Below are positions 2,046 through 26,371 of a DNA stretch of 64,000 bases, one piece after another. This DNA is from Flectonema sp. DT1601 (taxonomy: Eukaryota). The stretch covers positions 620,001 to 684,000 of the forward strand of contig OZ025806.1 in the NCBI GenBank assembly GCA_964019425.1, in the 5' to 3' direction. The notes beneath the pieces were generated by a model that ran no database searches, was not told the DNA's origin, and saw nothing but the letters and a program-made list of their open reading frames with translations. The position numbers and the translations under genes are program-made. Every line of letters begins with the position of its first letter. The stretch's first letter is position 1.

Positions 2046-2080
<35 letters not shown>

Positions 2081-2452: not shown

Positions 2453-2490
<38 letters not shown>

Positions 2491-3694: not shown

Positions 3695-3726
<32 letters not shown>

Positions 3727-4123
3727 ATCTCCCTGCTATCCTCATATCCCCACAATAATATTATACCTTTTCATTTTCTCTTTCCTTTTCTGGTCTTTTT
3801 TTTTTCTTTTTTTCCTTTTTCATACAACGTTTTTTATTTATATTTTATTTTTTTTTTTTTTTTTTTTTTCATGTTTGATTATTTCCTCTTCATATTTTTT
3901 TTCTATTCTTTCTTTTTTTTTTTTTTTTTTTTCTCTACCTCTCTCTTAATTCTGTTCGTTTCTTTGAAACGAAAATTCATTTGAATATTATTCCTTGGTC
4001 AGCAACCATCATTGTCGCCCTTTGGGCCTGTTAAAAAAAAAAAAAAATAAAAAGAAAGTTTACATCGGGAATAGGGCAGGAGCCAAAAGCTCCCAGTCCG
4101 TTACTTCCCACTTATCGAAATTC
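1604..4123 (+). mobile_element. Inverted, truncated copy (C) of the satellite-bearing element: ~15 satellite units plus terminal module, inserted into an opposite-orientation array
   Basis: Reverse-complement units at 1627-3720 and the module at 3723-4123. The flanks ...AAAGTCGAAC (1603) and ATAAAAAAAAACAATG (4124) rejoin a type-II unit minus one G. Bases 1604-1627 duplicate 1535-1560 (filler). Confidence 0.75.
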
Positions 4124-4764
4124 ATAAAAAAAAACAATGATAACATTGTTTATTCTTTTTTTTTTTATTTTTTTATATTCTTTTTTATTAATTTTGAAAA
4201 AAAAACAATCAGTTTAGCGTCTTGACCAGGACGGAAAATAGAAAGTAATCGACATAGTCGATCGATAAAAAAACAATGATAACATTGTTTAATCTTTTTT
4301 TTTAAATTCTTTTTATTTATTTTTTAAAGAAAAAAAACGGAAAATAGAAATTAGTCGACAAAGTCGAACGATAAAAAAACAATGATAACATTGTTTATTC
4401 TTTTTTTTTTATTTTTTTTATATTTATTTTAATTAATTTTGAAAAAAAAACAATCAGTTTAGCGTCTTGACCAGGACGGAAAATAGAAAGTGATCGACAT
4501 AGTCGATCGATAAAAAAACAATGATAACATTGTTTATTCTTTTTTTTTATTTTAAATTCTTTTTATTTATTTTTTAAAGAAAAAAAAACGGAAAATAGAA
4601 ATTAGTCGACAAAGTCGAACGATAAAAAAAAACAATGATAACATTGTTTATTCTTTTTTTTATTTTTTTTTTTATTCTTTTTTATTAACTTTGAAAAAAA
4701 AAAAACAATCAGTTTAGCGTCTTGACCAGGACGGAAAATAGAAAGTAATCGACATAGTCGATCG
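4124..4764 (-). repeat. Hairpin satellite, alternating long (~140 bp) and short (~105 bp) units
   Basis: Same unit sequence. Short units lack the CAATCAGTTTAGCGTCTTGACCAGGA block and carry GTCGACAAAGTCGAACG. Confidence 0.9.
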
Positions 4765-7700: not shown

Positions 7701-8817
7701 AGCTATCGGTCTCGTTTTCGAGATGTCTTTCCCATCGGAGTTGGGCTTTGGGAGCATTGTTACAAATGCTAAGCCCCAACTATCCGGATAGGCCTTGAGT
7801 TCGAAAATTCTCTTTAATACCTTGTAAAGTGCTTCCATAAAAGTTGGGACCTTTTTCCATACAACATAAGGTATGCAATTGGGACCAGGGGCACATTTGT
7901 TTTTTTTCTTTGATAAGAGAATACCAAACTGTTCGAAGCTCGGGAACTGGATATCATCCATTGTCTTGTAGTCAGACTTAGGTAAAAAAGAGGGATGGGT
8001 GAAATCAGTTTTTTTTTTTTCATTGTCACAATAATTGTTTTTAAAATGTTCAATTATTTTTTCCTCTGGAATATCAAGGGAGGGGGGTTGAGGATCTTCT
8101 TTTTGGAGTTCTTCTTTTATGGCAGTAAACGGATTTTGACGAAATTTATCTTGTAATTTTTTGAATAAATTTTTCTTTTCTAAATTCCGATACATTCGGA
8201 AAATCCTTTTCATTCTCGTTCTTGCCTCTTTCCATTTGACAGCGTTCTCTATAGAAGGCCCAGATTTGCGGAGCTCCTGTCTTAGCTGTTTCATTTCCAG
8301 ACGACATTCACGTTTTTCTTGGTCGAGGATGACCTCTTCCCTTGATTTCTGTTTGCGGGGTAAATTCCGCTTTGTTTCTTCAAAGAAACTGCTACAAATT
8401 TGATAAACCGTTTTGAGTAGTTTATCAAGTTGGTCGGCAGGTTTTAAAGAGTTTTCTGTTTCGACGGTGAAAGTTTGGAGTTTTTCTGTAGCAGAAACGT
8501 CGATGTCCTTCCATTCAGTTCCAAAAGATCGGAATTTGAGACGAGACGGGTGTAACGGGGTAAAAGTGGGTGTTGTAGAGTTACAAGGAACGAAAGTTGT
8601 TTGTGAAGTTTTAAAATCTACAGATTCTCCTACAAAGGGAGGTTCCAGGTCTGAATTATTCCCTGTGAGGGGAGACAGAGGTGTACCTTTACATGTACCG
8701 TTAGCACAGTGTTTCGCTCTCGTAGCGATACTTTTGAAAAGCTTACCACATTCTGGACAAGGTAAGTGGTAACAATCTTTAACTTGGGAGTGGGTAGATG
8801 GGGGAAAACGTGACTTA
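4602..8817 (-). CDS. Retrotransposon polyprotein (Zn finger-RT-CCHC-RLE-long C-terminal extension). The last ~54 codons are read-through into the satellite
   Basis: ORF track 4602..8294, manually extended without stops to the MITE at 8817, including CPECGKLFKSIATRAKHCANGTC. Confidence 0.85.
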
Positions 8818-9240
8818 CTGCAACTGGAAATATTACTGCGCTGAATAATTACTGCGGGGAAATATTACTGCGCGGAAAAATTAGTGCGGTTTTTTTGAGA
8901 AAAAATTAGTGCAGTTTTTTCCACTTGGTGGTAGAAAAAAATTTGGTTGTTTTTTTGCTGTATAAGGCACCAGCAGAAAAATGCAGCTGGAAAAAAGTCG
9001 ATTCTGAGCAGAAATATTAGTGCGGTGGAAATATTACTGCGTGGAAAAATTAGTGCGGTTTTTTGCAGATTTGGAAATTAGTGCGGTTTTTTCCGCGCAG
9101 TAATATTTCCAGTTGCAGTATAGTCCTTAAATTCTTTACTAAACTTACAGTTACGTCTAAAATGCGCAACTGGACCTTTGAGGTATGTCTCAAAACATAA
9201 AGGACATTTGGCTACTAAAGTTTTATCCCCATCCAAGTTT
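4765..9240 (-). mobile_element. Non-LTR retrotransposon, RLE group (NeSL/HERO-like), probably 5'-truncated
   Basis: RT motifs (APGPN, TRPI, QKGF, WVDLADAFGSV, GVFQGCVSSPTLF, FADD, FKYLG), CCHC CVLCGKVNPTLRHVLTGC, RHD, RLE RPDI...ILELTCP...KKY...IEVGVRG. The frame stays open upstream of ATG 8294 through two Zn fingers. Confidence 0.92.
8818..9118. mobile_element. 301-bp MITE (Tc1/mariner-like) with TA TSD
   Basis: Perfect 24-bp TIRs CTGCAACTGGAAATATTACTGCGC / GCGCAGTAATATTTCCAGTTGCAG. TA at 8816-17 and 9119-20. Internal AAATATTACTGCG/AAATTAGTGCGG repeats. Confidence 0.9.
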
Positions 9241-9864: not shown

Positions 9865-10259
9865 GAATTTCGATAAAGTGGGAAGTAACGGACTGGGAGC
9901 TTTTGGCTCCTGCCCTATTCCCGATGTAAACTTTCTTTTTATTTTTTTTTTTTTTTTTAACAGGCCCAAAGGGCGACAATGATGGTTGCTGACCAAGGAA
10001 TAATATTCAAATGAATTTTCGTTTCAAAGAAACGAACAGAATTAAGAGAGAGGCAGAGAAAAAAAAAAAAAAAAAAAGAAAGAATAGAAAAAAAAAAATA
10101 TGAAGAGGAAATAATCAAACATGAAAAAAAAAAAAAAAAAAAAATATAAATAAAAAACGTTGTATGAAAAAGGAAAAAAAGAAAAAAAAAGACCAGAAAA
10201 GGAAAGAGAAAATGAAAAGGTATAATATTATTGTGGGGATATGAGGATAGCAGGGAGAT

Positions 10260-10263
<4 letters not shown>
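9865..10263 (-). repeat. Terminal module of the satellite-bearing element (copy A)
   Basis: Near-identical to 677-1089. Confidence 0.9.
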
Positions 10264-10291
<28 letters not shown>

Positions 10292-10404
10292 ATTTATTAT
10301 TTAAAAAAAGGAAACAATCAGTTTAGCGTCTCGATCAGGACGGAAAATAGAAATTAATCGACATAGTCGATCGATAGAAAAAAAACAATGATAACATTGT
10401 TTAT

Positions 10405-10437
<33 letters not shown>

Positions 10438-10692
10438 CTTTTAATTATTTTAAAGAAAAAACAATCAGTTTAGCGTCTTGACCAGGACGGAAAATAGAAA
10501 GTAATCGACATAGTCGATCGATAAAAAAAAAACAATGATAACATTGTTTATTCCTTTTTTTTTTTTTTTTTTTTTATTCTTTTCATTTATTTTTAAAGAA
10601 AAAACAATCAGTTTAGCGTCCTGACCAGGACGGAAAATTGAAAGTGATCGACATAGTCGATCGATAAAAAAACAATGATAACATTGATTAAT

Positions 10693-10725
<33 letters not shown>

Positions 10726-11120
10726 TTTTAATTATTTTTTAAAGAAAAAACAATCAGTTTAGCGTCTTGACCAGGACGGAAAATAGAAAGTGATCGACAT
10801 AGTCGATCGATAAAAACAATGATAACATTGTTTATTCTTTTTTTTTTTTTTTTTTTTTTTTAATCCTTTTTATTATTTTAAAGAAAAAACAATCAGTTTA
10901 GCGTCTTGACCAGGACGGAAAATAGAAAGTGATCGACATAGTCGATCGATAAAAAAAAACAATGATAACATTGCTTATTCTTTTTTTTTTATTTTTTTTT
11001 GTATTCTTTTTTATTAATTTTGAAAAAAAACAATCAGTTTAGCGTCTTGACCAGGACGGAAAATAGAAAGTGATCGACATAGTCGATCGATAAAAAAAAA
11101 CAATGATAACATTGTTTATT

Positions 11121-11154
<34 letters not shown>

Positions 11155-13002
11155 CTTTTTATTATTTTTAAAGAAAAAACAATCAGTTTAGCGTCTTGAC
11201 CAGGACGAAAAATAGAAAGTGATCGACATAGTCGATCGATAAAAAAACAATGATAACATTGTTTATTCTTTTTTTTTTATTTTAAATTCTTTTTATTTAT
11301 TTTTTAAAGAAAAAAAACGGAAATAGAAATTAGTCGACAAAGTCGAACGATAAAAAAAAACAATGATAACATTGTTTATTCTTTTTTTTGTATTTTTTTA
11401 TATTCTTTTTTATTAATTTTGAAAAAAAAAACAATCAGTTTAGCGTCTTGACCAGGACGGAAAATAGAAAGTAATCGACATAGTCGATCGATAAAAAAAA
11501 CAATGATAACATTGTTTATTCTTTTTTTTTTTTGTATTCTTTTATATTCTTTTTTATTAATTTTGAAAAAAAAAACAATCAGTTTAGCGTCTTGACCAGG
11601 ACGGAAAATAGAAAGTGATCGACATAGTCGATCGATAAAAAAACAATGATAACATTGTTTATTCTTTTTTTTTATTTTAAATTCTTTTTATTTATTTTTT
11701 AAAGAAAAAAAAAACGGAAAATAGAAATTAGTCGACAAAGTCGAACGATAAAAAAAAACAATGATAACATTGTTTATTCTTTTTTTTTTGTATTTTTTTA
11801 ATATTCTTTTTTATTAATTTTGAAAAAAAAACAAAAAGTGATCGACATAGTCGATCGATAAAAAAACAATGATAACATTGTTTATTCTTTTTTTTTATTT
11901 TAAATTCTTTTTATTTATTTTTTAAAGAAAAAAAAAACGGAAAATAGAAATTAGTCGACAAAGTCGAACGATAAAAAAAACAATGATAACATTGTTTATT
12001 CTTTTTTTTGTATTTTTTTATATTCTTTTTTATTAATTTTGAAAAAAAAAAACAATCAGTTTAGCGTCTTGACCAGGACGGAAAATAGAAAGTGATCGAC
12101 ATAGTCGATCGATAAAAAAAACAATGATAACATTGTTTATTCTTTTTTTTTATTTTAAATTCTTTTTATTTATTCTTTAAAGAAAAGAAACGGAAAATAG
12201 AAATTAGTCGACAAAGTCGAACGATAAAAAAAAACAATGATAACATTGTTTATTCTTTTTTTTTTTTTTTTTTATATTCTTTTTTATTAATTTTGAAAAA
12301 AAAAACAATCAGTTTAGCGTCTTGACCAGGACGGAAAATAGAAAGTGATCGACATAGTCGATCGATAAAAAAGCAATGATAACATTGTTTATTCTTTTTT
12401 TTTATTTTAAATTCTTTTTATTTATTCTTTAAAGAAAAGAAACGGAAAATAGAAATTAGTCGACAAAGTCGAACGATAAAAAAAAACAATGATAACATTG
12501 TTTATTCTTTTTTTTTTTTTTTTTTATATTCTTTTTTATTAATTTTGAAAAAAAAAACAATCAGTTTAGCGTCTTGACCAGGACGGAAAATAGAAAGTGA
12601 TCGACATAGTCGATCGATAAAAAAACAATGATAACATTGTTTATTCTTTTTTTTTATTTTAAATTCTTTTTATTTATTTTTTAAAGAAAAAAAACGGAAA
12701 ATAGAAATTAGTCAACAAAGTCGAACAATAAAAAAAAACAATGATAACATTGTTTATTCTTTTTTTTTTTTATATTCTTTTTTATTAATTTTGAAAAAAA
12801 AAACAATCAGTTTAGCGTCTTGACCAGGACGGAAAATAGAAAGTAATCGACATAGTCGATCGATAAAAAAACAAGGGTAAAGGGGTCTTTCCTACACAAA
12901 TAGTTTCAGAACTAACCATTTATTACAAAATCCAAAATGGCTGTAAACCGTCCAGTTCGATCCTGGGTGAGGGCATTTTTTTTTTTTCCCGATTTTTTTT
13001 TC

Positions 13003-13485
13003 AGGTTGGACTTTGTACAGGGAGGTTGGCTTTTATTAGTGGCTCCCCCCCCTTGGGGGGGGTTGGGGGGGGGGGCTTGCGTCCCGCCAAGAATTTGGCG
13101 GACGCAAGCCCCCCCCTTGCACTCTTCCCCAGCTTAACATCCATTAGTAGCAAACTTGTTTTTTCAGGTTGGACTTTGTACAGGGGAGGTTGGCTTTTAT
13201 TAGTGGCTCCCCCCCCTTGGGGGGGGTTGGGGGGGGGGGCTTGCGTTCCGCCAAGAACTTGGCGGAACGCAAGCCCCCCCTTGCACTCTTCCCAGCTTAA
13301 TATCCATTAGTAGCAAATTTGTTTTTTGAGGTTGGACTTTGTACAGGACAGGCAGACTTTGTACGGGAGAGGTTGGCTTTTATTAGTGGCTCCCCCCCCT
13401 TGGGGGGGGTTGGGGGGGGGGCTTGCGTTCCGCCAAGTTCTTGGCGGAACGCAAGCCCCCCCTTGCACTATACCCCAGCTTAATA
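13003..13485 (+). repeat. Three tandem ~165-185-bp GC-rich hairpin units inside the MULE-type MITE
   Basis: GGGGGGGCTTGCGTTCCGCCAAG-nn-CTTGGCGGAACGCAAGCCCCCC and CCCCCCCTTGGGGGGG in each unit. Confidence 0.9.
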
Positions 13486-13520
13486 CCTATTCTGGGTGAA
13501 AAAATCCGGTGAAAAAAAAA

Positions 13521-13594
13521 TGACGTTGGTCGGGATTGAGCCTGGGCGTCGGGTATCCAAAGTCAGTGCTCCCTCCGCTGAACCACATCCGCTC
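13521..13594 (-). pseudogene. Degenerate tRNA-like sequence within the MITE
   Basis: A-box-like TGGTTCAGCGG and B-box-like GGCTCAATCC at tRNA spacing, followed by a T9 run. The stems pair poorly. Confidence 0.4.
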
Positions 13595-14436
13595 TTAAAG
13601 ACAGGTGCGGGTCTCGATGCATCCCATATACAGTTTTTGGGTCCCCCAGCCATTTTGGATTTTGTAATGAATGGTTAGTTCTGAAACTATTTGTGTAGTA
13701 AACACTAGTTTGCCCAAAAAACAATGATAACATTGTTTATTCTTTTTTTTTATTTTAAATTCTTTTTATTTATTCTTTAAAGAAAAGAAACGGAAAATAG
13801 AAATTAGTCGACAAAGTCGAACGATAAAAAAAAACAATGATAACATTGTTTATTCTTTTTTTTTTTTTTTATATTCTTTTTTATTAATTTTTAAAAAAAA
13901 AAACAATCAGTTTAGCGTCTTGACCAGGACGGAAAATAGAAAGTGATCGACATAGTCGATCGATAAAAAAAAAAACAATGATAACATTGTTTATTCTTTT
14001 TTTTTTTTTTTATATTCTTTTTATTAATTTTTAAAAAAAAAAAAAAACAATCAGTTTAGCGTCTTGACCAGGACGGAAAACTGGAAGTAATCGACATAGT
14101 CGATCGATAAAAAAAACAATGATAACATTGTTTCATCTTTTATATTTTTTAATTTTTTTTTTATATTTGAAGAAAAGAAAGAAAAAAAAAAAAAAACAAG
14201 CGGAATTGATCATAATGGGTGGCAGGGGTTGATATAACTTCATTTGAAAATTCTTCTTTTTTAATTTCTTTTTTTTTTTTTTTTTTTTTTATTTAACAGG
14301 AGTTAAGATCACTTACATGAGTTAACACAACACAGATACGAGAGTAGCAAACTGAGGTAACACTACCAATTCAACAAAAAATAATCAGGATCGGACACAA
14401 GGAGGAGAGTTCATTCTACCTCTCACTGTCCTTGCT

Positions 14437-14531
14437 GGTATCTTAAGTGTCTTGGTATCTCTTTTGTGTCGGTATCTCGGAAGTGCTGGTATCTCGTATG
14501 TGCGTTGGTATCTCTTGCGTGATGGTATCTC
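14437..14531 (+). repeat. Six GGTATCT(C) motifs at 17/17/17/19/17-bp spacing
   Basis: Copies start at 14437, 14454, 14471, 14488, 14507 and 14524, with variable linkers. Confidence 0.8.
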
Positions 14532-14822
14532 TTGCACATAAGAAAAAATATTGAGTTAACATGATCAGTTTTATTTAAAATTAAAGACAGACCGGAACTA
14601 TTTGAAAATAAAATGTAGATGGGAAACAGTGAAAATTAAAATGAATGATAAAATTAAATGAGATTTATGACATAACAGACCAGATAGAGAGTAATAAAGG
14701 GAAAAGGAAAACGGGAAGGGTTCATTCACTTAGTTAAAGTTAAGACCGATTAGTCAGTTTAAGGTCTTGACTAGGACCAACAAAAAAAAAAAAAAAATAA
14801 ATAAATAAATAAATAAATAAAT

Positions 14823-15016
14823 AACGATCAAGCTGAGCTGATCTTGTTTTTATTAAAATAAGGGGAGCGGGAGGGATGGAAGGAATAAAGGAAAAAAAAA
14901 GAAAAGGTCGATCAATTGGATCTGGTCGTCGAGAAGAAGAAGACAATTATTTTAAAGGTCGATCGGCATAGCCGATCGTTGAGAAAAATAACCAGATATA
15001 AATACAATCAGTTTAA

Positions 15017-15052
<36 letters not shown>

Positions 15053-15245
15053 AACGATCAAGCTGAGCTGATCTTGTTTTTATTAAAATAAGGGGAGCGG
15101 GAGGGATGGAAGGAATAAAGGAAAAAAAAAGAAAAGGTCGATCAATTGGATCTGATCGTCGAGAAGAAGAAAACAATTATTTTTAAAAAAAAATGATCGG
15201 TATAGCCGATCGTTGAGAAAAGAACAGATATAAATACAATCGGTT
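14823..15245. repeat. Tandem duplication (~230-bp period) containing diverged satellite-like hairpins
   Basis: AACGATCAAGCTGAGCTGATCTTG...GGTCGATCAATTGGATC...CAGATATAAATACAATC occurs twice (from ~14823 and ~15053). Confidence 0.85.
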
Positions 15246-15810
15246 TTGGTGATCGACGAGTGGAGCGATCACTTGACAAGAAGGAAAAAAGAAAGGACCG
15301 ATTAATTGGGGCTTTGGTTGTATTCCCAAGGCATGTTTTTTTTTTTTTTTTTTTTTTTATTATTCATTTACATTATTTTTTTTTTTTTTTTTTTTAAATT
15401 AATAATCACATTTTGTTGTACTCTAATATGAAAAATATTTCATATTAGAGTAAAAGAAAAAGAAAAAAAGAAATAAGAGAAAAAAAAAAAAAAAACCATT
15501 GCTGGCCCCCTCACCACTCATAGAGGATGAGGAGGCCAGTAAGGCGTCACTCAAATCTATGCCAAGCCTTGGGAACTTGGATTGGGGTTTAGACCATTTA
15601 CGATTAACAATTGACAATGATGTTTTTGGAAGAGCTAAGCTAAGTGGCAAGGTTTCACTAACAGATCGACTTTTTGTCAGCATCTCAGGCTTCTTTTTGC
15701 CGAGGACGTGCGGCTTTCTTTGTGGTCTCACAGTGACACTTTTAAAAGAAATTATCTATTCCGGTGGGTATAAAAAAGGGGGAGGGGGCGGGTGAGTACA
15801 CCCACAGATC

Positions 15811-18800
15811 TCAGCGGTCATCTTTAAGTCTCTTTCCTGGGCTCAGGCTAGTCCTCCCTGAGTCCGCTGAACTGTATGGCGATATCTTCTTCTTTGTCTT
15901 CTCGTTCGAGGATGGGCACGACCTCGTCCTCCTGTGTCTTGGTGTACTGTCTGGGTGATCCAAGGCTCTGGAGGCGGTCTCCACTCCGGCGGTCCAACAT
16001 CTTCGACAGGTCGTTATCTGGCACTTCGTGCATCTGCTCCTGAACCATTTCCGTTGCAACAATCTATGGCAGAAGTCGCATTTGACCCTTGGTCCCTTTT
16101 GCAACGGCGGTGCATGGTCACATGTCGGTCGGGTATCTTCGGTATCGTTTGTGGAGACATCGGAGCTACTTGTCCCCGTCCGGGGTGGGCTGCTCCTTGC
16201 TCTTCTGGTCTTCGGTGTCGGATCTTCTGTAGAGCTGTTATGGCTGTCGAGGTCTAGCGTTCTGGCCACAGGGGGAGTGTGGGTCTCCTTGTCGTATGCT
16301 TGTAACTGCGATGACGGGCTGGACAAGTCGCGTTCCTCCTTGGTGAGGATGTCTACTGGTTCTTCAGAGGTGTCACACACTTCATTGTCGAGGGCGTCCG
16401 CTAGTTCTCCGGAGGCATCCTGTTCTATTTCGGTAAGGATGTCTGCTGGTTGTTCGGCGGTATCGCGCACTTCTTCGGCGAGGGTGTCTGCTAGTTCTCC
16501 GGCGGCATCCTGTTCTACTTCGGTAAGAATATCCGCTGGTTCTTCGGAGGCATCGCGTACTTCCCCGGTGAGGGTGTCTGTCTGTTCTCCAGGGGCATCA
16601 TATACTTCTTCCTTGAGGGTGTTTACTGTATCTTCGGAGGCATCGTGTTCACCTTTCTCCGGCGGGTCTATGGTTGCAACTATCGTCCTTAGACTGGCTG
16701 ACGGCAGGGGACTGCCTTCGGTGGGCAAATCTGTCGGTTTAGTGACTGGTGTGGCGCTGGCCGTGGCATCTTCCAATTCCTGACTTGCATTCGGCGGTGG
16801 GATGTCGGTTTCCTTTGGCTCCGGCTTACTCTGGCCGACATTGGTTGCAACTGCAGTTTCAACAGGTGAGGCGGTCGGCGCTACATTTTCTATCTCCGTC
16901 GTGACCGTCGGGTTCCGTTGGTTATCTACTAGTGGGGGGCCTTCTGAAGTCACTGAGTCTTCTCGGGCCACTTCAGGTGCGGACGTCTTCGACTTCTTCA
17001 CTGATACAGGCTCGTCTTGCGAATCTGAACCAGGGGACCACTGCTTCTTGCTCCTCGGACTGGCCGATGGCGTTGGGCTTCTATCGGGGTCGGCTATGGC
17101 GGGCGGTGGATGGTCTGCCTCAGCCTTTGGTTTTTTGACCGAGGCAGACTCTCCCTGCGAATCGGAATCTGGGGATCTCGGTTTCTTGGTTAACCGTAAT
17201 CCCAGCTCCCCTTCCAGTTCTGAGGTACGTCTCAACACGTCCATCAGCGAGCAGTAATCTCGAGAGGACACCTCTTCCGCCTTGAACTGCGCACAGTTGT
17301 TGGCGACGTTTGGTGTGTTGAGGAAGCTCCATGTGTCCGGCACAGCCCCCGCCAGTCCCGTCCGTGTTGTCGCACTCCACGTGTTCATATTTCCTCTGCA
17401 ACTCCAGGTGGCATTTCTATCCTGTTGACTCATCTTCTGTATCCCCTTGAGGGCAGCATAGTAGGAGGCTAGCCCGAGGTCTGCAGTGTCGAGCGTCGCA
17501 CCCCAGCTGGCCGTCAACTTGTGCAGTTGCGTGTCCAACAGGCAGGCGGCCGCCCCCGTCCTCCCAGTGTTCAAGTTCCTATGACTGGCAAAGAATAGGC
17601 ACATGCGAGGCGAGTCCTGTTGAGGTCCCCCTGCCATGTGGTCCCACCAGTATAGAGAGGCTTCCAATCGCGAGTTGAAGGCCTTGTACCGGCTTCTGGT
17701 GAACTCGTTTACCATCGAGCTCGCTTCGCGCCAGCAGTCGTACAGACCGGACTTTCGGCCCCTGACTACTGCGTACCATTTGCTGCCCGGCGATGGAGCG
17801 ACTTTGGTATCCCCTGATGGTGGGTTGTACCTCTCGACAAATCGCTGGGCCGACTCGCGGAGGACGAATCTTTGGTGGACGGCGCCTCTGTATTTGTGCA
17901 CCTCCCTCTTCGTTTCCTCCCACGTGGTATAGACTCCCGGGGATCTGCCTTCGGCGACTCCGTAGAAGAAAGATGGCTTCCTGTTGGAGGGTGCTAAAAT
18001 CCGTCTTGGATCCTGGGTGGAGGAGGGTAGCTGCTCTCGTCTCAGGTACAGGGCGACGCAGGGCTTTACTTGTGTGACCTTCGACGTGTAGATTCCCTCG
18101 GCAGAATCGTCTTGTTTCAGCCATCCCCCCCTTCCATTTGTCGTATACGACACATAGTGCCCCGAGACCTCGTTAAATCTGACGTGTTGGATCATTCCAG
18201 TCAGGGTGTAGAGGCGGCTCGATGCGTCTATGAAGGATTCTGGAAGGGTGACTTCATCGGGTTTGGTATCTCCAAAATGTCCCTCTTTGAACCCAAGGAA
18301 CAGCGAACGGGCTGGCTCGTCTACCGATGTAACGATCTCCGCTGAGCACGATTTACAACTCGGGCAGGTGAAGTCTGTCGGGCTTGTCGTCGTTTCGTCA
18401 AGGGCAGACGCTGTCTTTTGGTCAGGTTCCAGTCTGAGGATGGGCGTTCTATACCGTACCGTGTGTATGTCTTCGCAGACTTGACACGTGCGGATTTGCG
18501 TTACCGTGGACACGAAGTCGACTGGTGGAGCTCCCGCCTCAACGATTGCTTCGAGCAGCTCTGACAGTGCATGTTCGGCTTCCGATTGTCCCGGACCGCA
18601 GCGTGGTTTCATCCATTCCCATATCTTCTTCGCTGCCAAAACAGACCCCGATCGCTTCAGCTCCCTCAGGGTGCATAAGACACAGTCTGCTGAGTGTTCC
18701 GGCAATTTGTTGCATTCCGGAAGAGGCATGCCCTTGCATAGGCACTGCAGCGCTGCGTTCATGTAGCAGGAATCCCCGAGATTCTGAATCCCCTCCAGGC

Positions 18801-21450
18801 CTACTCCAAAGGGTATGAAGGTCGGAGGGTGTTCTATTGCTGGATTCTCGGGTTTCGAAGTGAGTGACGGCCCTCTCTGTGTCAAGGGCGTACCCGGGAC
18901 CGACTCCGGTTCCTGCCATCGTCCGGCAGAAGTTGTTATTGGGCCAGGAAGGTGCATGACGGCAGAGTCTGGAACAGACAGGGCGTCTTCGTTCGGCGTT
19001 ATCTCTCCACCGTGCGTAGCGATTGGATCAGTGGGCGATTCATGCGGCCTCAGCCCGGTCTCCGATATCTCTAAACCTCCGGCAGTGGATTTGGAAGGGC
19101 CAGGGGGCATAGGGACAGCAGCGGCTGGGTCGATCAATATGAATACATTCCGTCCGCCTATTGGCAGTGAAGGATTGCCTGTTTCTATTGTGGGTTCAAC
19201 CGGCGCTCCTTGCGGGCGAAAAGACGGTCTCGGCTCCGGCTCCGGTAACTCTAAACTTCCGGCAATGGATATGGTTGGGCCCGGAGGAGTAGGGACAGCG
19301 GTGACTGGAGCGGTCTGATCCGTCTCGGTTCGTTTAGCGGCTGGCGAGGAAGTTACGTCTACAGCTGATGCCGGATCAACCGGCGCTTCTAGAGGTCTGT
19401 TGAGTGGCAGTCTCAGCCCGGGCTCCGATACCTCTAAACCTCCGGCGATGGATGTGGTTGGGCCAGGAGGGGTCGGGGCAGCGGTGGCTGGAACGTACAA
19501 CGTGAACTCGTTCGGTCCAACGGCTGGCAAGGAGGCAGCTGGAGCGGACACTGGTGTGGCTGTCGGGTCGGGTCCTCCGTCGTCAGTCGTGTACGGTAAC
19601 GGGGTCGGCACTGGTGTTGATTCGTACTCACACGGCTCTCCGTCTTTGTGTAGTGGAATTGCGGCACTCGTAGCGGGTTCTGCGGGCAATCTTTGCGGAC
19701 TAGTCGACGGACTCGGCGAAGGCTCCGATATCCCTAAACCTCCGGCGATGGATATGGTTGGGCCAGGAGGGGTCGGGGCAGCGGTGGCTGGTTCAGTCGA
19801 TGTTTTCTCGTTTCTCCCTCCAGCTGGTAAGGAAGCCGTCGGAGCGGACACTGGTGTGGCTGTCGGGTCGGGTCCTCCGTCGTCAGTCGTGTACGGTAAC
19901 GGGGTCGGCGCTGGTGTTGATTCGTACTCACACGGCTCTCCGTCTTTGTGTAGTGGAATTGCGACACTCGTAGCGGGTTCTGCGGGCAATCCTTGCGGAC
20001 TAGTCGACGGACTCGGCACAGGCTCCGATATCCCTAAACCCCCGGCGATGGATATGGTTGGGCCAGGAGGGGTCGGGGCAGCGGTGACTGGTTCAGTCGA
20101 TGTTTTCTCGTTTCTCCCTCCAGCTGGTAAGGATGCCATCGGTGCGGACACTGGTGTGGCTGTCGGGTCGGATCCTCCGTCGTCAGTCGTGGTCGGTAAC
20201 GGGGCCTGCGCCGGCACTAGTTCGAGCTCTCTCGGCTCTCCGGCTTTGTGTAGTGGAGTTGTGAGGCTCATAGTGGGTTCGGCGGACACCCCTTGCGGAC
20301 TAGTCGAAGGACTCAGCACAGGCTCCGATACCTCTAAACCTCCGGCGGTAGATATGATTGGGCCAGGAGGTGTCGGGGCAGCGGTAGTTGGATCAATCGA
20401 TGCGGTCTCGTTCCGTCCTTCGGTTGACAGGGTAGCGGCTGGAACGGACACCGATGTAGCTATCGGAACGGGTCCTCCGTCGTCAGTCGTGGTCGGTTGC
20501 GGGGCCGGCACTGGTGTTGAATCGAACTCCCTCGGCACTCCAGCTTTGTGTTGTGGAGTTACAAGACTCGTTGCGGGTTCCTCTGGCTTCGTGGCCGGCC
20601 TGGTAACTGAATCCCCGTCGGGTTCCGCTGACCGGCCGATCCCTCCGGCATCCGGTGTGGTTGGGTCTGGAGTTGGATCCATAGGTTGTGGGGTCGATGC
20701 GGACAATGGCACGTCATCGGATGTGCTCGGTGCAGGCGGCATGTGTGGCGTGTGCGGCTTACTAGCGGATAACGCTGCCTGGTGTATGAGCGATGCTCCT
20801 CTTGCCCTGAGGGCTTCTGCAGTGCAGACCACCACTTGGGTTGAGACCCTCCTGGCATACAGGCCTGCAACCTCCCGTAGGGGTACTGTTGTGGCAATGG
20901 CTCGCAGCTGCGACAGTCGGCTCAGGGTCCTCACAGCTTGTGGGCCTAAACCTCCATAGACTTCAAGTGCAATCGGGGAAAAGTTTAATCCGAACTTTGC
21001 ACATAGGGCCGAGTATTTGCCTGACTTTGCGGCTTCTGCTTCACTGGCTGCTTGTCCCGGCTTGTTGTAGTTTCTAGAAGCCCCCGGGTTGACGATCGTC
21101 ACGTCAAAGGCCCGCCCGACCCCCTCGTTCAACCCTTGCGGACAGTACCAATCTGCGGGTCGCTGCTTGTTGTATCCAACGAGGTATTTGGGTTCCCTCA
21201 TCGTTGCCAAGCCCGCCGAACGACAGATGCCGATAAACTCTTCCCTTACTTTGTCATGCCTGCGGTGGATATCCCCTCCGTCAATGCATACAGAGGCGTG
21301 GTACCCGAATGCGTCCTGCGTCTTCTTGCAGGCACGGCAGGCCTCATCCTCTGAGAACAGGGCTGTCCCGAGACGTAATCCGCAGGCGATACGGAATATG
21401 TCGGAGCCTATGTAGCACTCCTCATCTGGACATTGTAAGAAAACGAACAT
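15811..21450 (-). CDS. 5'-truncated CRE-like non-LTR retrotransposon ORF: CCHC-RLE, P/T repeats, USP (C19) protease, 2x RNase H1 hybrid-binding domain, degenerate RNase H, acidic repeats, Cys-rich Zn finger
   Basis: RLE region: FRIACGLRLG, CRAC..HASVC, RRHD, REP..RPAD..DVT..AEAAKSGKY..LEVYGGLG. USP: GIQNLGDSCYMNAALQCL and GMIQH..SGHYVSY..WLKQDDS. Hybrid-binding domains: FYGVAEGRSPGVYTTWEE and WYAVVRGRKSGLYDCWRE. 1879 codons without a stop, and GC-rich relative to the host. Confidence 0.85.
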   Translation of the reverse strand: MFVFLQCPDEECYIGSDIFRIACGLRLGTALFSEDEACRACKKTQDAFGYHASVCIDGGDIHRRHDKVREEFIGICRSAGLATMREPKYLVGYNKQRPADWYCPQGLNEGVGRAFDVTIVNPGASRNYNKPGQAASEAEAAKSGKYSALCAKFGLNFSPIALEVYGGLGPQAVRTLSRLSQLRAIATTVPLREVAGLYARRVSTQVVVCTAEALRARGASLIHQAALSASKPHTPHMPPAPSTSDDVPLSASTPQPMDPTPDPTTPDAGGIGRSAEPDGDSVTRPATKPEEPATSLVTPQHKAGVPREFDSTPVPAPQPTTTDDGGPVPIATSVSVPAATLSTEGRNETASIDPTTAAPTPPGPIISTAGGLEVSEPVLSPSTSPQGVSAEPTMSLTTPLHKAGEPRELELVPAQAPLPTTTDDGGSDPTATPVSAPMASLPAGGRNEKTSTEPVTAAPTPPGPTISIAGGLGISEPVPSPSTSPQGLPAEPATSVAIPLHKDGEPCEYESTPAPTPLPYTTDDGGPDPTATPVSAPTASLPAGGRNEKTSTEPATAAPTPPGPTISIAGGLGISEPSPSPSTSPQRLPAEPATSAAIPLHKDGEPCEYESTPVPTPLPYTTDDGGPDPTATPVSAPAASLPAVGPNEFTLYVPATAAPTPPGPTTSIAGGLEVSEPGLRLPLNRPLEAPVDPASAVDVTSSPAAKRTETDQTAPVTAVPTPPGPTISIAGSLELPEPEPRPSFRPQGAPVEPTIETGNPSLPIGGRNVFILIDPAAAVPMPPGPSKSTAGGLEISETGLRPHESPTDPIATHGGEITPNEDALSVPDSAVMHLPGPITTSAGRWQEPESVPGTPLTQRGPSLTSKPENPAIEHPPTFIPFGVGLEGIQNLGDSCYMNAALQCLCKGMPLPECNKLPEHSADCVLCTLRELKRSGSVLAAKKIWEWMKPRCGPGQSEAEHALSELLEAIVEAGAPPVDFVSTVTQIRTCQVCEDIHTVRYRTPILRLEPDQKTASALDETTTSPTDFTCPSCKSCSAEIVTSVDEPARSLFLGFKEGHFGDTKPDEVTLPESFIDASSRLYTLTGMIQHVRFNEVSGHYVSYTTNGRGGWLKQDDSAEGIYTSKVTQVKPCVALYLRREQLPSSTQDPRRILAPSNRKPSFFYGVAEGRSPGVYTTWEETKREVHKYRGAVHQRFVLRESAQRFVERYNPPSGDTKVAPSPGSKWYAVVRGRKSGLYDCWREASSMVNEFTRSRYKAFNSRLEASLYWWDHMAGGPQQDSPRMCLFFASHRNLNTGRTGAAACLLDTQLHKLTASWGATLDTADLGLASYYAALKGIQKMSQQDRNATWSCRGNMNTWSATTRTGLAGAVPDTWSFLNTPNVANNCAQFKAEEVSSRDYCSLMDVLRRTSELEGELGLRLTKKPRSPDSDSQGESASVKKPKAEADHPPPAIADPDRSPTPSASPRSKKQWSPGSDSQDEPVSVKKSKTSAPEVAREDSVTSEGPPLVDNQRNPTVTTEIENVAPTASPVETAVATNVGQSKPEPKETDIPPPNASQELEDATASATPVTKPTDLPTEGSPLPSASLRTIVATIDPPEKGEHDASEDTVNTLKEEVYDAPGEQTDTLTGEVRDASEEPADILTEVEQDAAGELADTLAEEVRDTAEQPADILTEIEQDASGELADALDNEVCDTSEEPVDILTKEERDLSSPSSQLQAYDKETHTPPVARTLDLDSHNSSTEDPTPKTRRARSSPPRTGTSSSDVSTNDTEDTRPTCDHAPPLQKGPRVKCDFCHRLLQRKWFRSRCTKCQITTCRRCWTAGVETASRALDHPDSTPRHRRTRSCPSSNEKTKKKISPYSSADSGRTSLSPGKRLKDDR
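19060..20580 (-). repeat. Coding tandem repeats: ~4 units of 300 bp (100 aa) plus ~2 shorter 180-bp variants
   Basis: TTDDGGPDPTATPVSAP...PTPPGPTISIAGGLGISEP recurs at 300-bp intervals (e.g. 19430, 19730, 20030, 20330). Confidence 0.9.
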
Positions 21451-21462
21451 AACAATAAAATT

Positions 21463-21616
21463 CTAAGTGAGAAACACTTAGCAGAAACACTTAGCAGCTT
21501 TTAAGGAGCTGAAAAGCAAAAAAAGAATCTAAGTGAGAAACACTTAGTAGAAACAATTTGTAGCTAATTAAGCTGAAAATAAAAAAATAAAAAATTTCTA
21601 AGTGAGAAATACTTAG
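21463..21616. repeat. Three copies of the palindrome CTAAGTG-AGAAA-(C/T)ACTTAG
   Basis: Copies at 21463, 21529 and 21598. A further 11-bp perfect inverted repeat AACCTGTAATG..CATTACAGGTT lies at ~21646-21674. Confidence 0.75.
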
Positions 21617-22198
21617 CAACTTTTAGAACAAACATTTCAGTAAATAACCTGTAATGATTAAACCATTACAGGTTTGATGCCAAGACTGACAAGGACTGAG
21701 TTGAATTTACCGGGTGAGATTTGGACTGTTAGCTTTTGGCTAAGGCCCTCCCTGAAGAGCAAGAACAAAAAAACTACTCACACCTGAAGAAAACATACAC
21801 AAAGAACACACTGTAAGCTGTGTGTGTATTTTGTGTTTGTCACAACAGGAGAGAAAAGAAAGAATGTCAAGGTTGGTCACCTTGCCTATCAACGCACAAC
21901 ATTGGTGGTCTCTACTAGACCCTGAGTGATCCCACTGGATCTCTCATCGTTCATAGTACCCTGTGTGAAGTTATAAAATCAAAGGTAAACTATGAACTAC
22001 AAATGACTTAGCCTGTTATTATAATGCCACAGGCAGGCCATGCATTCAGCAACTATCCAGCAGTGCTTGGATGTCCTGATCTTCTTCTAAAAAAAAGAAA
22101 GAAAAACAAAACTGTAGCTGGGATCACTCAGGATCAACAGACTACCAATGCTACCTGTTGTACTTGCTCACTATGGGGGGTGATGCCAAACACCCAGA

Positions 22199-24307
22199 TG
22201 AGGCGATCGGCAGGGTGGAGGTGTTCACGATTTTTCACTTTGCTACACGAAAATTCACGATTTTTCACGATTTTTCACGATTATTCACTTAATTTTTTGC
22301 TGCTTTCTGGTAGTGAAATCCCGTGAAAATGTGTGAAAATGTGTGAATTCTAGTGAAAAAAGTGAGTGACATCCAGATGGTACCGTTGGTGCTGTGCAAT
22401 GTCAAACCTGTTCAGTTTGCCATACATGTCACTTTGACAACTAAATGGGCATCGCTTGTGCCCAGTGACCCATCACCCTTTCTGACCATCGCTTGTGGTG
22501 AGGTTCCGGACTTTGGACCGGCGCATCGCGTGTGCGGTGGGTTTAATCACTGAGGGGACTCATTCTCGTTCAGACTGTTCTGTTCTGTAACAACCCGACC
22601 ATGATCATTCAGCAAATATGAGATGTCAATTGTGGCTGCCTCTGACATGTCACGTGCAACCTCTGCCCAAAACTGGAGAAGTTGCCGCGGAGTGCGATGC
22701 TCCCGGGAGAATGAGATGAGACGTCTGAGCACACCATTCACAATACTATATTGTGCACACATGAACTCCATGATGTTGCCCATTTCCTCGTTACTGAGAG
22801 ACATCAGGTAAGCATATGCCCGCCTGCGACGATGAGAGTACTTGATGAGGCGCTTGTTGCGCTGCAAGAATGTGAGAATCCACCTGAGGAATGGAATACC
22901 TCGAAGCGGGCATGATAACACATAGCATGCAAATGCTAAGGTTCCGAAGCGCCCATTCGTAACCTTCTCTTTAAATGGGCACGCCCTAAAAGAGATGCGG
23001 TGCTTGTTGCGAAGCAAGTAAGCAAACGACCGATTCCCACGTATGAAGAAGCACAGTGTTACTATGAACGGAGGAAGTCACTGAGGCCAAAGTACTTCGC
23101 AATCCAGGAGGCAATGCAATGAACTCGGTGTGTAGGCTCCGGGATGAGGCAGATATTGCCATCTTGGTCAAATAATTTAAACCCCCTGTATTCTGATCCA
23201 CCCCGATCACTGAGCGCAGAGGTAATCGTGCAAGTTGACAGAGGTGGTGGTGCCAGATCAGTGATTAAGATTCCGAGCTGCTGGAAGTGGTGCAGCGCAC
23301 GTCGTAGTGTGTCACAGAATGATTTACTTTGAGCTTGGTGGCTCTGTGTCAGTCTGCATGCAAGACTATAGCATGCAGTCGTAGCTGTAGCAGCAGTGAT
23401 GTGTAGCGCTGACGAGTTTTCTGTCACAGATGTTGCGTCACTTACTAGGCAGAAGGTACTCTCCCGGTTGCGAATGAGAAACACACAATCCTGCACATAC
23501 AACCACCGGATCATCTCTCTTCGTGCAGCCCAATAACTGACGGAGTCAAGACCATGAAGCTGGCGGGTAAACTGCGGAATGCGGCGCATGGCGATGTGCT
23601 GCAAGAGGATCGGGACAACTGTACTTGGTGGCTGTGGGCGGAGGTCCCAGCAACAGTGTATTGCGATACACCGTCAACCTCACCAATCTTCTCATCGCAC
23701 CAGATCAGCATGCCATCCGTGCCAGCAACACGAGCCCTAACCTCCAAGTCATCTTCAACTTCTAGTCCCATACCACCCAATACATCTAACAGCTTTGATC
23801 TGCTAGTCACATACAGCAAGATCTCTGCTGGCAAGGAATCGCGAAGTTGCACTGTTACTCTTACGAGAGCCATGTGAATGCATTACCACAATAAACTTTA
23901 GAGAACGATAGGATTAACAAGCACCACCACTTCAACGATCACCACACATGCCTATCAACCCACCTGTGCTAGAATAGTTCAGCAACCACATGAAACTGTA
24001 ACAAGAGCTGGATTAAAGAGAAGTAGTATTAACAATAAACTGTAGAGAACGATAGGATTAACAAGCACCGATGACAACTACGAAGCAGTGCAGTTCAGGC
24101 CCCCCCTGAGTAGTTTTTTTTAACAAACCACAAATCTCAATATCAAAATTCACGAAAATTCACGATTATTCACGAAAATTCACGATTTTTCACCATGCTT
24201 TTTGGCAGTGAATTTTCGTGAATTTTCGTGATAGGTAGTGACAACTCGTGACAAACCGTGAAGGATCGTGAAAATTCGTGAAACCTCCACCCCTGCCGAT
24301 CGCCTCA
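22199..24307 (-). mobile_element. 2.1-kb TIR DNA transposon (TG...CA ends, 5-bp TSD CCAGA), defective
   Basis: TIRs TGAGGCGATCGGCAGGG(G)TGGAGG. CCAGA lies on both sides. Many subterminal TTCACGA motifs at 22225-22285 and 24149-24282. Confidence 0.85.
22547..23873 (-). pseudogene. Frameshifted hAT-like DDE transposase
   Basis: Three overlapping ORFs in different frames. Motifs FCLVSDATS (D1), ALSDRGGSE (D2), EPTHRVH (CxxH-like) and NGRFGT (TRW-like). The third acidic residue was not found. Confidence 0.55.
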
Positions 24308-24491
24308 CCAGAAGTACTAAACTGCTTTCCTTCTTGCTGCCCAGGAGTTTCTGACCAGAACTAATAGAAAATAAAAAGTAGATGGGAAACAATAAAAAGT
24401 AAAATGGATATAACTGAAGTTAAACAAGACAAATGAAGTAACAGACCAGAACAGAAAGAGGATTGTAATAGAAGATTACAAATAAAAAATT

Positions 24492-25194
24492 GTGTTGTGT
24501 TGTACTTCAAGTCCGAGGATAACGCATGCAGGATGGAAACCGCCATTAGGGGTGCAAGCGAGAAATATGATAATTCGGCTGTTCAGTCCTCAATTGTGGA
24601 AGAACCTGACCACACCTGCACCACGAGGGTATTTAAAGGACACTACAATAACGAAACTCCTTCTCCATCACGGGATAATTGGGGTACCTCAGCCATCGAA
24701 ATTCCTGATGAATCGCGATCAAAATCATACACTACAATCCTTAATCAAGAACGCGTTAAGAATGAATCAATCATCGATAGAATGCTATGAAAACTACAGT
24801 TGGAAGCCAATAGGCTGTCACATAAGGCCAAAAGCAAAATACCCAAAATCAGCGAAGGATTCAAGCAATTTTCTAATTATGGATGACACTCTACACCGAG
24901 CGTGGGATGACAACGTGCCTTCTGTCACTTTTTACTACGCCGAGAAGTCTTGGGAGGCAGGTTCCTACAAGCCTGTGGCTTGGAGCAATCTTTAAATCTC
25001 CTAAGATGGCATCATATTACGCCAAGATTATTTGATCTCCAATGCAAGATGGATGCACATTGACATTTACCATCAACCACAAGGATCCAAAGGCATTGAA
25101 AGAATATCTGGACTGGAGGCATGAGCAAAACAGCAGGAAGATGGGACTCAAAAGCGATGATGATGACGACGGTGACGACGACGATGATGAATGA
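24492..25194 (+). pseudogene. Decayed HNH (His-Me finger) endonuclease gene
   Basis: CHIRPKAKYPKSAKDSSNFLIMDDTLHRAWD. After a frameshift and an in-frame stop comes DPKALKEYLDWRH plus an acidic tail. Confidence 0.5.
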
Positions 25195-26101
25195 TACCGG
25201 CAACCCCGTACAGATAATCCAAGTAGATGAAAACCTTCTAGCACTTCACCATTCTTTTTAGAGAACTTCCTGAGCAGATTCTTCAATCTGCCGAGTTATA
25301 CATATAGTGTGTAAGCCATCTGGTTTCTTTTGATGTATATCTCTTTCGGATAACTTGTTAAGTTTCTTTCTTCACTGTTGGGCAGTGTTCAAAGGTTATG
25401 TCCTTGGTACAAAGTGTTGGAGTTCAGATTTGGCCCTATTAAGTAAATCAATTATTTCTCCACAGGAACCTAAAGAATATTTAAACGCGAGGTCAAGTGA
25501 TGTAAGGCAATTGTAGCTTCAGTTCTCAAGTAAGACAGGATGGAATACCTTTTTTCTGTTTCTTAGGTAAATAAATTTGCGGTGTCTTTCCTCAACTTCT
25601 TTTCAGTGGGGGGGTTTTTCTGCACCGCCTCATATGAAAGATTGGGTTCTTTTTGATTGGAATGTTCTCCGTCACCACATGAGAAGTTTAGGTTGATCTA
25701 CAGTGGCATTTCTGCCTTCCATTCGCACTTTATTAGCGTTTAGTTACTGTCTGTTTTAGTTCAACGAGTAGTTCAGGTGGTTGTCTGAAGATTCTGAGAA
25801 TGACTATTCCTTACTCAACAATATCAGTGTGTTGGAGTTTATTAAAGGAGATTTTAATTAGCTGAATTGAGCAGATGGTTGATAATTGTCGTTGGGTCAT
25901 TTGTGGTTTCCTTCTCTTTGGTATTATTTTCGTTTTTTACCTGGTAAGAAGTCGTATTATTAACATTCCCAACAGATGACATAAAATGGTATCCACATAG
26001 GATTTGAATCTAATTACTGTATTCGTAAGGAATTGTGTTCTGTTTTTTATCAGCTTAACTTCCCACCACAGCTTTCTCTACAAACCGTTAAAAACTCTAA
26101 C

Positions 26102-26371
26102 ATGACTGAACGCAAGGCAGTCATCAAGAATGCTGACATGTCGGAAGACATGCAGAGTGATGCTATCGACTGTGCCACCCAGGCACTAGAGAAGTTCAAC
26201 ATCGAGAAGGACATTGCCGCCTACATTAAAAAAGAATTTGACAAGAAGTACAACCCAACCTGGCATTGCATTGTTGGGAGAAACTTCGGATCGTATGTGA
26301 CTCATGAAACAAAGCATTTCATATACTTCTATCTGGGTCAGGTCGCCATCTTGTTGTTCAAGAGTGGATAG
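26102..26371 (+). CDS. DYNLL1: Dynein light chain LC8
   Basis: [18 protein letters not shown]...[42 protein letters not shown]. Confidence 0.98.

What the first reader, a model, noticed from the sequence alone, without database searches (positions are those of the whole stretch)
15811..21450. CRE-like retrotransposon carrying a USP deubiquitinase and tandem RNA:DNA-hybrid-binding domains after its endonuclease
Seen: one uninterrupted frame links a CRE-type CCHC-RLE (~21340-20790) to a ~650-aa P/T-rich linker and a compact USP domain (~18800-18040). The USP retains the Cys box (QNLGDSC), the finger CxxC pairs (CQVC, CPSC), the His box (GHY) and the downstream acid (QDDS). Two hybrid-binding domains, an RNase H-like fold and a terminal Cys-rich finger follow. 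Known: RLE is usually the last domain, and the proteases I know in non-LTR elements are Ulp1 (NeSL) and Josephin-like (Dualen). I know of no C19/USP domain placed C-terminal to RLE, though I cannot search to confirm this. Inference: an element-encoded deubiquitinase tethered to the RT-endonuclease and to the RNA:DNA intermediate could protect the RNP from degradation or strip ubiquitin marks at the insertion site. The RT is missing here (5' truncation at ~21445).
Basis: partly seen in the sequence, partly recalled or inferred. Interest (0 to 1): 0.88.

Follow-up and report, generated by a model that had tools for sequence, protein, structure and literature searches.

The report
Retrotransposon carrying two deubiquitinase-type proteases
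This is the 3' part of a multi-copy jumping gene, likely from a diplonemid protist, whose single giant protein adds a ubiquitin-protease (USP) domain and RNA:DNA-hybrid-binding-type domains behind its endonuclease (whole relatives also carry a second, OTU-type protease in front), a layout that likely lets the element strip ubiquitin-like tags from itself or nearby proteins while it copies itself into the genome.

Summary
Confirmed and extended. Window 15811-21462(-) is one 1883-codon frame: CCHC knuckle and RLE with catalytic residues kept, a 663-aa Pro/Thr linker, a USP (Pfam UCH above cut-off; model matches USP36; Cys899/His1102/Asp1118 intact), two hybrid-binding domains, an RNase H fold lacking its catalytic acids, and a weak Cys-rich finger. 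It is a headless copy. Database relatives supply the RT in the same frame and define three families (A, B, C) on at least 35 contigs. These RTs group together (SH-aLRT 95). Control: 51 of 55 CRE-like metagenome ORFs stop within 29 aa of the RLE, and none of 80 loci has USP, OTU or HBD. Caveat: the USP lacks the ubiquitin-Arg72-binding Glu and the KRF motif, so its substrate may not be ubiquitin. OTU, Ulp1 and Josephin domains in transposons are known, as is one C19-DNA-transposase fusion; I found no paper on a post-RLE USP or a two-protease retrotransposon. Activity, target site and Repbase precedent are untested. New variant of a known kind.

The parts
15811..21462 (-). Single open frame, 1883 aa stop to stop (P0001); 3' part of a CRE/SLACS-like retrotransposon ORF, family A
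   Evidence: about 98.5% identical to P0002 and P0008 and 96.6% to RT-bearing P0014; GC3 53-71% against 27-29% in four host-type ORFs
21436..21441 (-). Approximate 5' break: homology to intact copies starts here; RT, OTU and N-terminal fingers are missing
   Evidence: alignments to P0008, P0014 and P0022 start at aa 8; no target-site duplication above chance, best 8 nt
21286..21339 (-). CCHC zinc knuckle (C42, C45, H55, C59)
   Evidence: invariant in 8 of 8 aligned elements
20797..21435 (-). Restriction-like endonuclease region; R68-H69, D104, D120, K146 (KxxKY) kept
   Evidence: motif meaning from PMC5678591 passages; 95% identical to family B, 60% to C, 38% to D. papillatum
18808..20796 (-). 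663-aa Pro/Thr-rich linker with a 300-bp tandem repeat (3.9 copies, 19421-20580) and a recurring T/I-A-G-G-L motif
   Evidence: dN/dS among repeat units 0.49-1.3; length 55 aa in family C and about 1020 aa in family B
18031..18807 (-). Compact USP (peptidase C19) domain, 259 aa: N894, C899, H1102, D1118 and four finger Cys kept; Arg72-binding Glu replaced by H964; KRF motif lost
   Evidence: Pfam; AlphaFold2 pLDDT 87.6; Foldseek USP36 8bs3 E 9.2e-18, TM 0.76; column comparison with 130 other USPs
17827..17976 (-). Hybrid-binding domain 1 (RNase H1 N-terminal, Cauli_VI)
   Evidence: phmmer to yeast 1qhk E 4.5e-7 and human 3bsu E 6e-5
17638..17787 (-). Hybrid-binding domain 2
17194..17613 (-). 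RNase H1-like fold without catalytic acids (likely a pseudo-nuclease)
   Evidence: model pLDDT 85.7; Foldseek archaeal RNase H1 4e19 E 1.6e-5; VIA Z 12.1, rmsd 2.9, 115 aligned to 4h8k; no D or E in strand 1 or helix A, E. coli E48 aligns to Ser
16123..17193 (-). Acidic, low-complexity tail with 45/90-bp repeats (16342-16645)
15997..16122 (-). Cys/His-rich segment, ZZ-like; present in families A and B, absent in C
   Evidence: Pfam ZZ_ADA2 E 0.0025, below cut-off; 47 of 55 aa identical in family B; atlas hits 0.81 or lower

Best explanation
The frame is a 5'-broken copy of a multi-copy, CRE/SLACS-like RLE retrotransposon whose single polyprotein places a USP protease domain behind the RT-endonuclease (and, in whole relatives, an OTU domain in front), and these domains likely act as element-tethered isopeptidases that remove ubiquitin or a ubiquitin-like tag from the element's own protein or from proteins at the insertion site. 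Shown: domain order, multi-copy state, intact triads, and the same layout in D. papillatum. Inferred: the RLE nicks the target and the RT copies the element RNA (standard target-primed reverse transcription); the two hybrid-binding domains and the inactive RNase H fold would grip the RNA:cDNA hybrid without cutting it; the long flexible linker would let the USP sweep the neighbourhood and reverse tags that send the protein to the proteasome or that recruit repair factors. The altered tail-binding residues suggest a changed substrate preference. This copy cannot move by itself.
For: RT+RLE+USP in one ORF in families A, B and C; OTU+RT+USP in P0056, P0064 and D. papillatum P0067. Catalytic C/H/D are kept across USPs only 20-30% identical while the linker varies from 55 to about 1020 aa. 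OTU Cys and His motifs are kept in A/B, C and D. papillatum. USP-bearing RTs are one side of a branch, SH-aLRT 95, 6 of 81 rows. Two D. papillatum families with 56% identical RT-RLE share a 94% identical USP part, pointing to exchange of the module. Control: no USP, OTU, HBD or RH profile hit in 1861 ORFs of 80 CRE-like loci. Precedent for host ubiquitin control of retrotransposon proteins: TEX19.1/UBR2 on L1 ORF1p (PMC5570191, abstract).
Against: No activity, expression or substrate data. The Asp of the Q-x-D-A-x-E box (100% in 130 comparators) is Glu in A, B and C; the following Glu (91%), which binds ubiquitin Arg72 in USP28 (PMC8983731 passages), is His or Gly; the KRF motif is lost; D. 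papillatum lacks the oxyanion Asn in this alignment. D. papillatum has no HBD or RH, so the USP does not depend on hybrid tethering. The USP tree does not join D. papillatum with A, B and C (long branch). No dN/dS on the USP was possible: DNA of other copies was not available.
Confidence: 0.6

Rival explanations
1. The USP fold is a self-processing protease that cuts the polyprotein at diglycine sites in the linker, releasing the USP-HBD-RH module from the RT-endonuclease.
For: 14 GG pairs in the family A linker against 4.6 expected and 20 against 8.8 in family B; T/I-A-G-G-L is the best-kept part of the repeats in both. Ubiquitin-specific contacts are altered. Recalled, not from a call: USP-fold viral papain-like proteases cut after LxGG.
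Against: The family C linker has no GG yet keeps the triad; the GG excess partly reflects amplification of one repeat unit; D. papillatum P0067 shows no excess (6 against 8.1).
Confidence: 0.12
2. The extension is a host-manipulating or targeting module: the HBDs and dead RNase H fold bind host R-loops or other hybrids and steer insertion there, and the USP edits histone or repair-factor marks rather than protecting the element.
For: Two HBDs plus one (A, B) or two (C) RNase H-like folds; no fixed flanking target was seen, and copies lie on at least 35 contigs.
Against: No insertion-site data; D. papillatum elements lack HBD and RH.
Confidence: 0.15
3. The USP, HBD and RH are captured host fragments carried as neutral passengers and are decaying.
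For: The RNase H active site is lost; several USP consensus positions are lost; element USPs sit on long branches; the D. papillatum P0045 copy has an internal USP deletion.
Against: The triad, finger cysteines and a 2.6-2.8 kaa open frame persist across families whose USPs are only 20-33% identical.
Confidence: 0.1
4. A single chance fusion, assembly artefact or domesticated host gene.
For: The window copy lacks RT, a clear poly(A) end and a target-site duplication.
Against: Clusters of 22, 16 and 35 members on many contigs; the same layout in a second species; GC3 unlike host genes.
Confidence: 0.02

Closest known systems
CRE clade (SLACS, CZAR, CRE1, CRE2 of trypanosomatids)
   Same: Single ORF, N-terminal zinc fingers, RT, RLE, internal repeats (PMC12278014 passages). 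The nearest named proteins are auto-annotated 'SLACS 132 kDa' in D. papillatum; that orthogroup includes 3 T. brucei members.
   Different: ORF about twice as long; more than 1300 aa after the RLE; OTU, USP, HBD and RH domains; no spliced-leader target seen. The words 'protease' and 'ubiquitin' do not occur in the main text of that mobilome paper.
NeSL and Utopia RLE elements
   Same: RLE non-LTR elements with a captured cysteine protease (Ulp1) or an archaeal-type RNase H (PMC4640811 passages).
   Different: There the protease is N-terminal, and the RNase H is upstream of RT and keeps its conserved acids; here a C19 protease and a dead RNase H fold lie downstream of the RLE.
Dualen/RandI (Josephin) and a Symbiodinium ORF2p with OTU
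   Same: Non-LTR proteins fused to N-terminal DUB domains (PMC13405545 passages).
   Different: One DUB per protein in the passages read, N-terminal, not USP.
Ginger1, Mutator and Helitron proteases; T. vaginalis XP_001314237.1 (transposase_11 + peptidase C19)
   Same: Transposons carrying OTU, Ulp1 or C19; the authors already proposed a role of de-ubiquitination in transposition (PMC2836005 passages).
   Different: DNA transposons; Ginger1 carries OTU or Ulp1 'but not both', whereas these elements carry two classes at once.
USP36, USP18 and USPL1 (compact USP domains)
   Same: Fold and triad.
   Different: About 20% identity or less; ubiquitin-tail contacts are altered, as in the SUMO-specific USPL1, though USPL1's own signature residues are not shared (Tyr after the catalytic His and Gln959 are ubiquitin-type).

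Membership tests
CRE clade non-LTR retrotransposon | RT and RLE in one ORF | tested here: met
   In relatives P0014 (96.6% to the window), P0035, P0056, P0064; RT absent from the window copy
CRE clade non-LTR retrotransposon | CCHC knuckle and RLE catalytic residues (RH, PD..D, KxxKY) | tested here: met
CRE clade non-LTR retrotransposon | N-terminal zinc-finger-like motifs | tested here: met
   Pattern matches in P0006, P0056, P0067; not in the window copy
CRE clade non-LTR retrotransposon | RT groups with reference CRE elements (SLACS, CZAR, CRE1/2) | tested here: inconclusive
   No reference CRE sequence was held; the tree has only unnamed CRE-like RTs and auto-annotated SLACS-like D. papillatum proteins
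CRE clade (trypanosomatid members) | Site-specific insertion in spliced-leader RNA genes | tested here: inconclusive
   No SL-type Rfam match in 12800-26000; no tool-derived SL sequence and no DNA of other copies were available
CRE clade non-LTR retrotransposon | 3' poly(A) tail and target-site duplication | tested here: inconclusive
   Best duplication 8 nt, chance level; the 3' end is unmapped, A-runs lie about 420-470 nt past the stop
USP / peptidase C19 | Cys box, His box, triad, oxyanion Asn | tested here: met
   N894, C899, H1102, D1118
USP / peptidase C19 | Palm-thumb-fingers fold | tested here: met
Ubiquitin-specific USP | Glu that binds ubiquitin Arg72; conserved Q-x-D box and KRF motif | tested here: not met
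   H964, E961 and K-E-G in family A (meaning of the Glu)
USP / peptidase C19 | Isopeptidase activity | not testable with these tools
   needs an assay
RNase H1 | RNase H fold | tested here: met
RNase H1 | D-E-D-D catalytic acids | tested here: not met
   No acid in strand 1 or helix A; E. coli E48 aligns to Ser in a weak alignment (probability 5%)
RNase H1 hybrid-binding domain | Cauli_VI profile above cut-off; Trp and basic pair | tested here: met
   90 bits against cut-off 21; Trp kept, the Lys-Lys pair only half basic
OTU protease (relatives only) | Profile above cut-off; catalytic Cys and His | tested here: met
   P0006 E 2.4e-12, P0056 E 1.9e-12, P0067 E 4.5e-5

The most novel reading that the evidence does not exclude
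A lineage of diplonemid retrotransposons has built a counter-surveillance machine: an inactivated RNase H1-derived module (two hybrid-binding domains plus a dead nuclease fold) reads the RNA:DNA hybrid and parks a re-specified USP there, while an OTU guards the other end, so that two isopeptidases with different substrates, one possibly not ubiquitin, erase host marks at the moment of insertion; the USP module is exchanged between families as a cassette.
Probability: 0.25. Interest if true: 0.88.

Novelty: new variant of a known kind. Interest (0 to 1): 0.7.

Why it matters
RLE retrotransposons normally end at the endonuclease (51 of 55 controls). A lineage that keeps more than 1300 extra residues with an intact USP, and an OTU at the other end, is strong comparative evidence that ubiquitin-type signalling is a pressure on retrotransposition. 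That idea was raised for DNA transposons in 2010 (PMC2836005), and I found no test of it. The 259-aa USP is small enough to express, has a changed substrate groove and may be a protease of new specificity. The related element lies in D. papillatum, a model species with a public genome, so the question can be tested directly. For R2-type genome-writing work it suggests that large C-terminal cargo after the RLE is tolerated in nature.

Tried and rejected
No whole genome is held for the window, so copy DNA, termini, target sites and USP dN/dS were out of reach. No sequencing run was listed; this is no evidence on expression. No earlier scan findings. Sequence searches for the RNase H-like part gave nothing (Pfam; PDB, best E 1.1); only structure identified it. 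The USP profile search of 1.84 billion representatives returned 150 rows: one is the D. papillatum element P0045, the top scores are tandem multi-USP proteins inflated by summed scores, and 0 of the other 149 matched my RT-RLE profile. USP-like motifs seen by eye upstream of RT in P0088, P0049 and P0050 were not supported by profiles (P0088 and P0049 independent E 4-9; P0050 no hit). The first RT tree was distorted by a very long outgroup, so drops that row and L080 (81 of 83 rows kept). The USP tree (70 of 130 comparators used) could not place the donor. One host ORF row was read on the wrong strand and dropped from the GC3 comparison. No USP-ubiquitin complex was predicted: no ubiquitin sequence was among those searched and a pass would follow from likeness to solved structures. 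Literature searches with no paper on this layout: 0 papers; listings; the relevant ones read as passages. Kojima's review (doi 10.1266/ggs.18-00024) was not held. Repbase and Dfam could not be searched.

Full report
OBSERVATION. The frame 15811-21462(-) is open for 1883 codons; 200 shuffles of the region gave at most 387. Pfam gives UCH (aa 891-1121, 39.1 bits, cut-off 23.9) and two Cauli_VI domains. The element is 54-60% GC with GC3 53-71%, against GC3 27-29% in four host-type ORFs of the window.

IT IS A MULTI-COPY RETROTRANSPOSON. The USP-HBD region found a 22-member cluster, further clusters of 7 and 16 and, through the RT, a 35-member cluster. They form three families: A (the window), B (RLE 95%, USP 76% identical to A) and C (RLE 60%, USP 33%). 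The listed members lie on 23 distinct contig lengths for A/B and 15 for C, 3 shared, 35 in all (only 15 members per large cluster were listed). Broken copies run into repeats that also occur in the window, so they are likely from the same species. RT, RLE and USP lie in one ORF in P0014 (A), P0035 (B) and P0043/P0057 (C). P0056 and P0064 (2840 and 2836 aa) are whole: fingers, OTU, fingers, RT, RLE, short linker, USP, RH-like, two HBDs, RH-like, tail. For A/B the OTU is in N-terminal fragments (P0006, E 2.4e-12) linked to the RT only by overlap (P0006-P0015 92%, P0015-P0010 100% over 58 aa, P0010-P0014 94%). That link is inferred. The window copy starts at about 21438; nothing upstream of it is in the window. 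Whether it was cut during insertion or by a later deletion is unknown; no target-site duplication was found.

A SECOND SPECIES. The nearest named RTs are from Diplonema papillatum. KAJ9440845.1 (P0067, 2636 aa) has OTU, RT, RLE, a 690-aa linker and a USP (E 4.8e-8), but no HBD or RH. A second D. papillatum family (P0045) is 56% identical to it in RT-RLE but 94% in the USP part and beyond, which suggests exchange of the C-terminal module. In an RT tree of 81 rows the 6 USP-bearing rows are one side of a branch (SH-aLRT 95, quick search, midpoint root). That the host is a diplonemid is inferred from this kinship; I did not test host genes. The USP tree joins A, B and C (92) but leaves the D. papillatum USP on an unresolved long branch, so a single capture is plausible, not shown.

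CONTROL. 51 of the 55 end within 29 aa of the RLE, the longest tail is 292 aa, and no ORF of 1861 hit USP, OTU, HBD or RH profiles at E 0.01. Most contigs are short, so N-terminal absence is weaker evidence than C-terminal absence.

THE DOMAINS. RLE: CCHC, RH, D104, D120 and KxxKY are kept (motif roles from PMC5678591 passages). USP: the model has pLDDT 87.6 (its alignment held 39 other USPs among 44 rows, which favours that fold) and matches USP36 at E 9e-18. Against 130 other USPs it keeps N894, C899, Q959, H1093, H1102, Y1103, D1118 and four finger cysteines. It changes the invariant Asp to Glu961, the 91% Glu to His964 (Gly in C, Glu in D. papillatum) and loses KRF. The corresponding Glu binds ubiquitin Arg72 in USP28 and is replaced in the SUMO protease USPL1 (PMC8983731 passages; mapping it to this column is my reading). 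It is therefore likely an active protease of uncertain substrate. RH-like: five strands and four helices in RNase H order, best matches archaeal-type RNase H1 (Z 12.1, rmsd 2.9, 115 aligned). Strand 1 and helix A hold no acidic residue and E. coli E48 falls on Ser (a weak alignment), so it is likely inactive. HBDs keep the Trp and half of the basic pair. The terminal finger is weak and confined to A and B.

MECHANISM. Shown: architecture, copy number, conservation. Inferred: ordinary target-primed reverse transcription by RLE and RT; hybrid binding without cleavage by HBD-HBD-RH; removal of ubiquitin or a related tag by USP and OTU, from the element's own protein or neighbours (0.6). Hosts do restrict retrotransposons by ubiquitination (PMC5570191, abstract only). 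Rivals: R-loop targeting or chromatin editing (0.15); self-cleavage at the linker's diglycine repeats (0.12; enriched in A and B, absent in C); decaying passenger (0.1); artefact (0.02).

COMPARISON WITH WHAT IS KNOWN. It works like a CRE/SLACS element; formal clade membership and the spliced-leader target were not settled. Known captured proteases: Ulp1 N-terminal in NeSL and Utopia (PMC4640811 passages); Josephin and OTU N-terminal on ORF2p proteins (PMC13405545 passages); OTU or Ulp1 in Ginger1 and one C19-transposase fusion in T. vaginalis (PMC2836005 passages); OTU in Helentrons (PMC6431247 passages). RNase H capture is described in PMC5348765 (passages). The D. papillatum genome paper only lists SLACS-type RTs and calls for rigorous TE analysis (PMC10161547 passages and 7 supplementary files searched); supplements not held as text may say more. 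Searches found no USP after an RLE and no retrotransposon with two protease classes. Repbase, Dfam and subscription journals were not searchable.

VERDICT. Real, multi-copy and shared with a second species. A new variant of a known kind: proteases of this sort in transposons are an established theme, but this class, position and combination appear undescribed. Interest 0.70.

Noticed in passing
window 22199-24307: About 2.1-kb element with about 90-bp terminal inverted repeats (78%) and ORFs without a significant Pfam match, 760 nt upstream of the broken 5' end.
   Followed up: partly
window 22466-22549 (-): Twister-P1 ribozyme-like sequence just after an ORF inside that element; 33.8 bits, below the gathering score 67.2, but the core and pairings align with a 22-nt insert.
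   Followed up: partly
window 688-4113 and about 9866-14200: Foldback-like element with long inverted ends and internal 140-bp tandem arrays; its end sequence also interrupts copies of the USP element on other contigs (P0021, P0041).
   Followed up: partly
window 4602-8864 (-): A second, distantly related non-LTR ORF (RVT_1, zf-RVT), at most 23% identical to the CRE-like RTs, running into the 140-bp array.
   Followed up: no
window 21457-21618: 66-bp repeat next to the 5' break; the same sequence follows a broken 5' half of the element on another contig (P0012, 96%).
   Followed up: partly
P0006 and P0056, residues 5-20: Families A/B and C both begin with a hydrophobic, signal-peptide-like stretch, the most hydrophobic window of each protein; absent in P0067. 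Unexplained; depends on start-codon calls.
   Followed up: partly
P0074: JGI names this RT-RLE-only protein 'ubiquitin carboxyl-terminal hydrolase 44/49', hinting that an RT-USP fusion already sits unrecognised in a reference database.
   Followed up: no
P0088, P0049, P0050: CRE-like elements with USP-like Cys-box and His-box remnants upstream of RT by eye; not supported by profiles.
   Followed up: partly
window 26102-26371 (+): Short intronless host ORF that looks like dynein light chain LC8 (name recalled; translation), marking host DNA upstream of the mobile-element cluster.
   Followed up: no
window 32562-35078 (+): ORF with a ubiquitin-like domain and an AlkB-type 2OG-Fe(II) oxygenase.
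   Followed up: no
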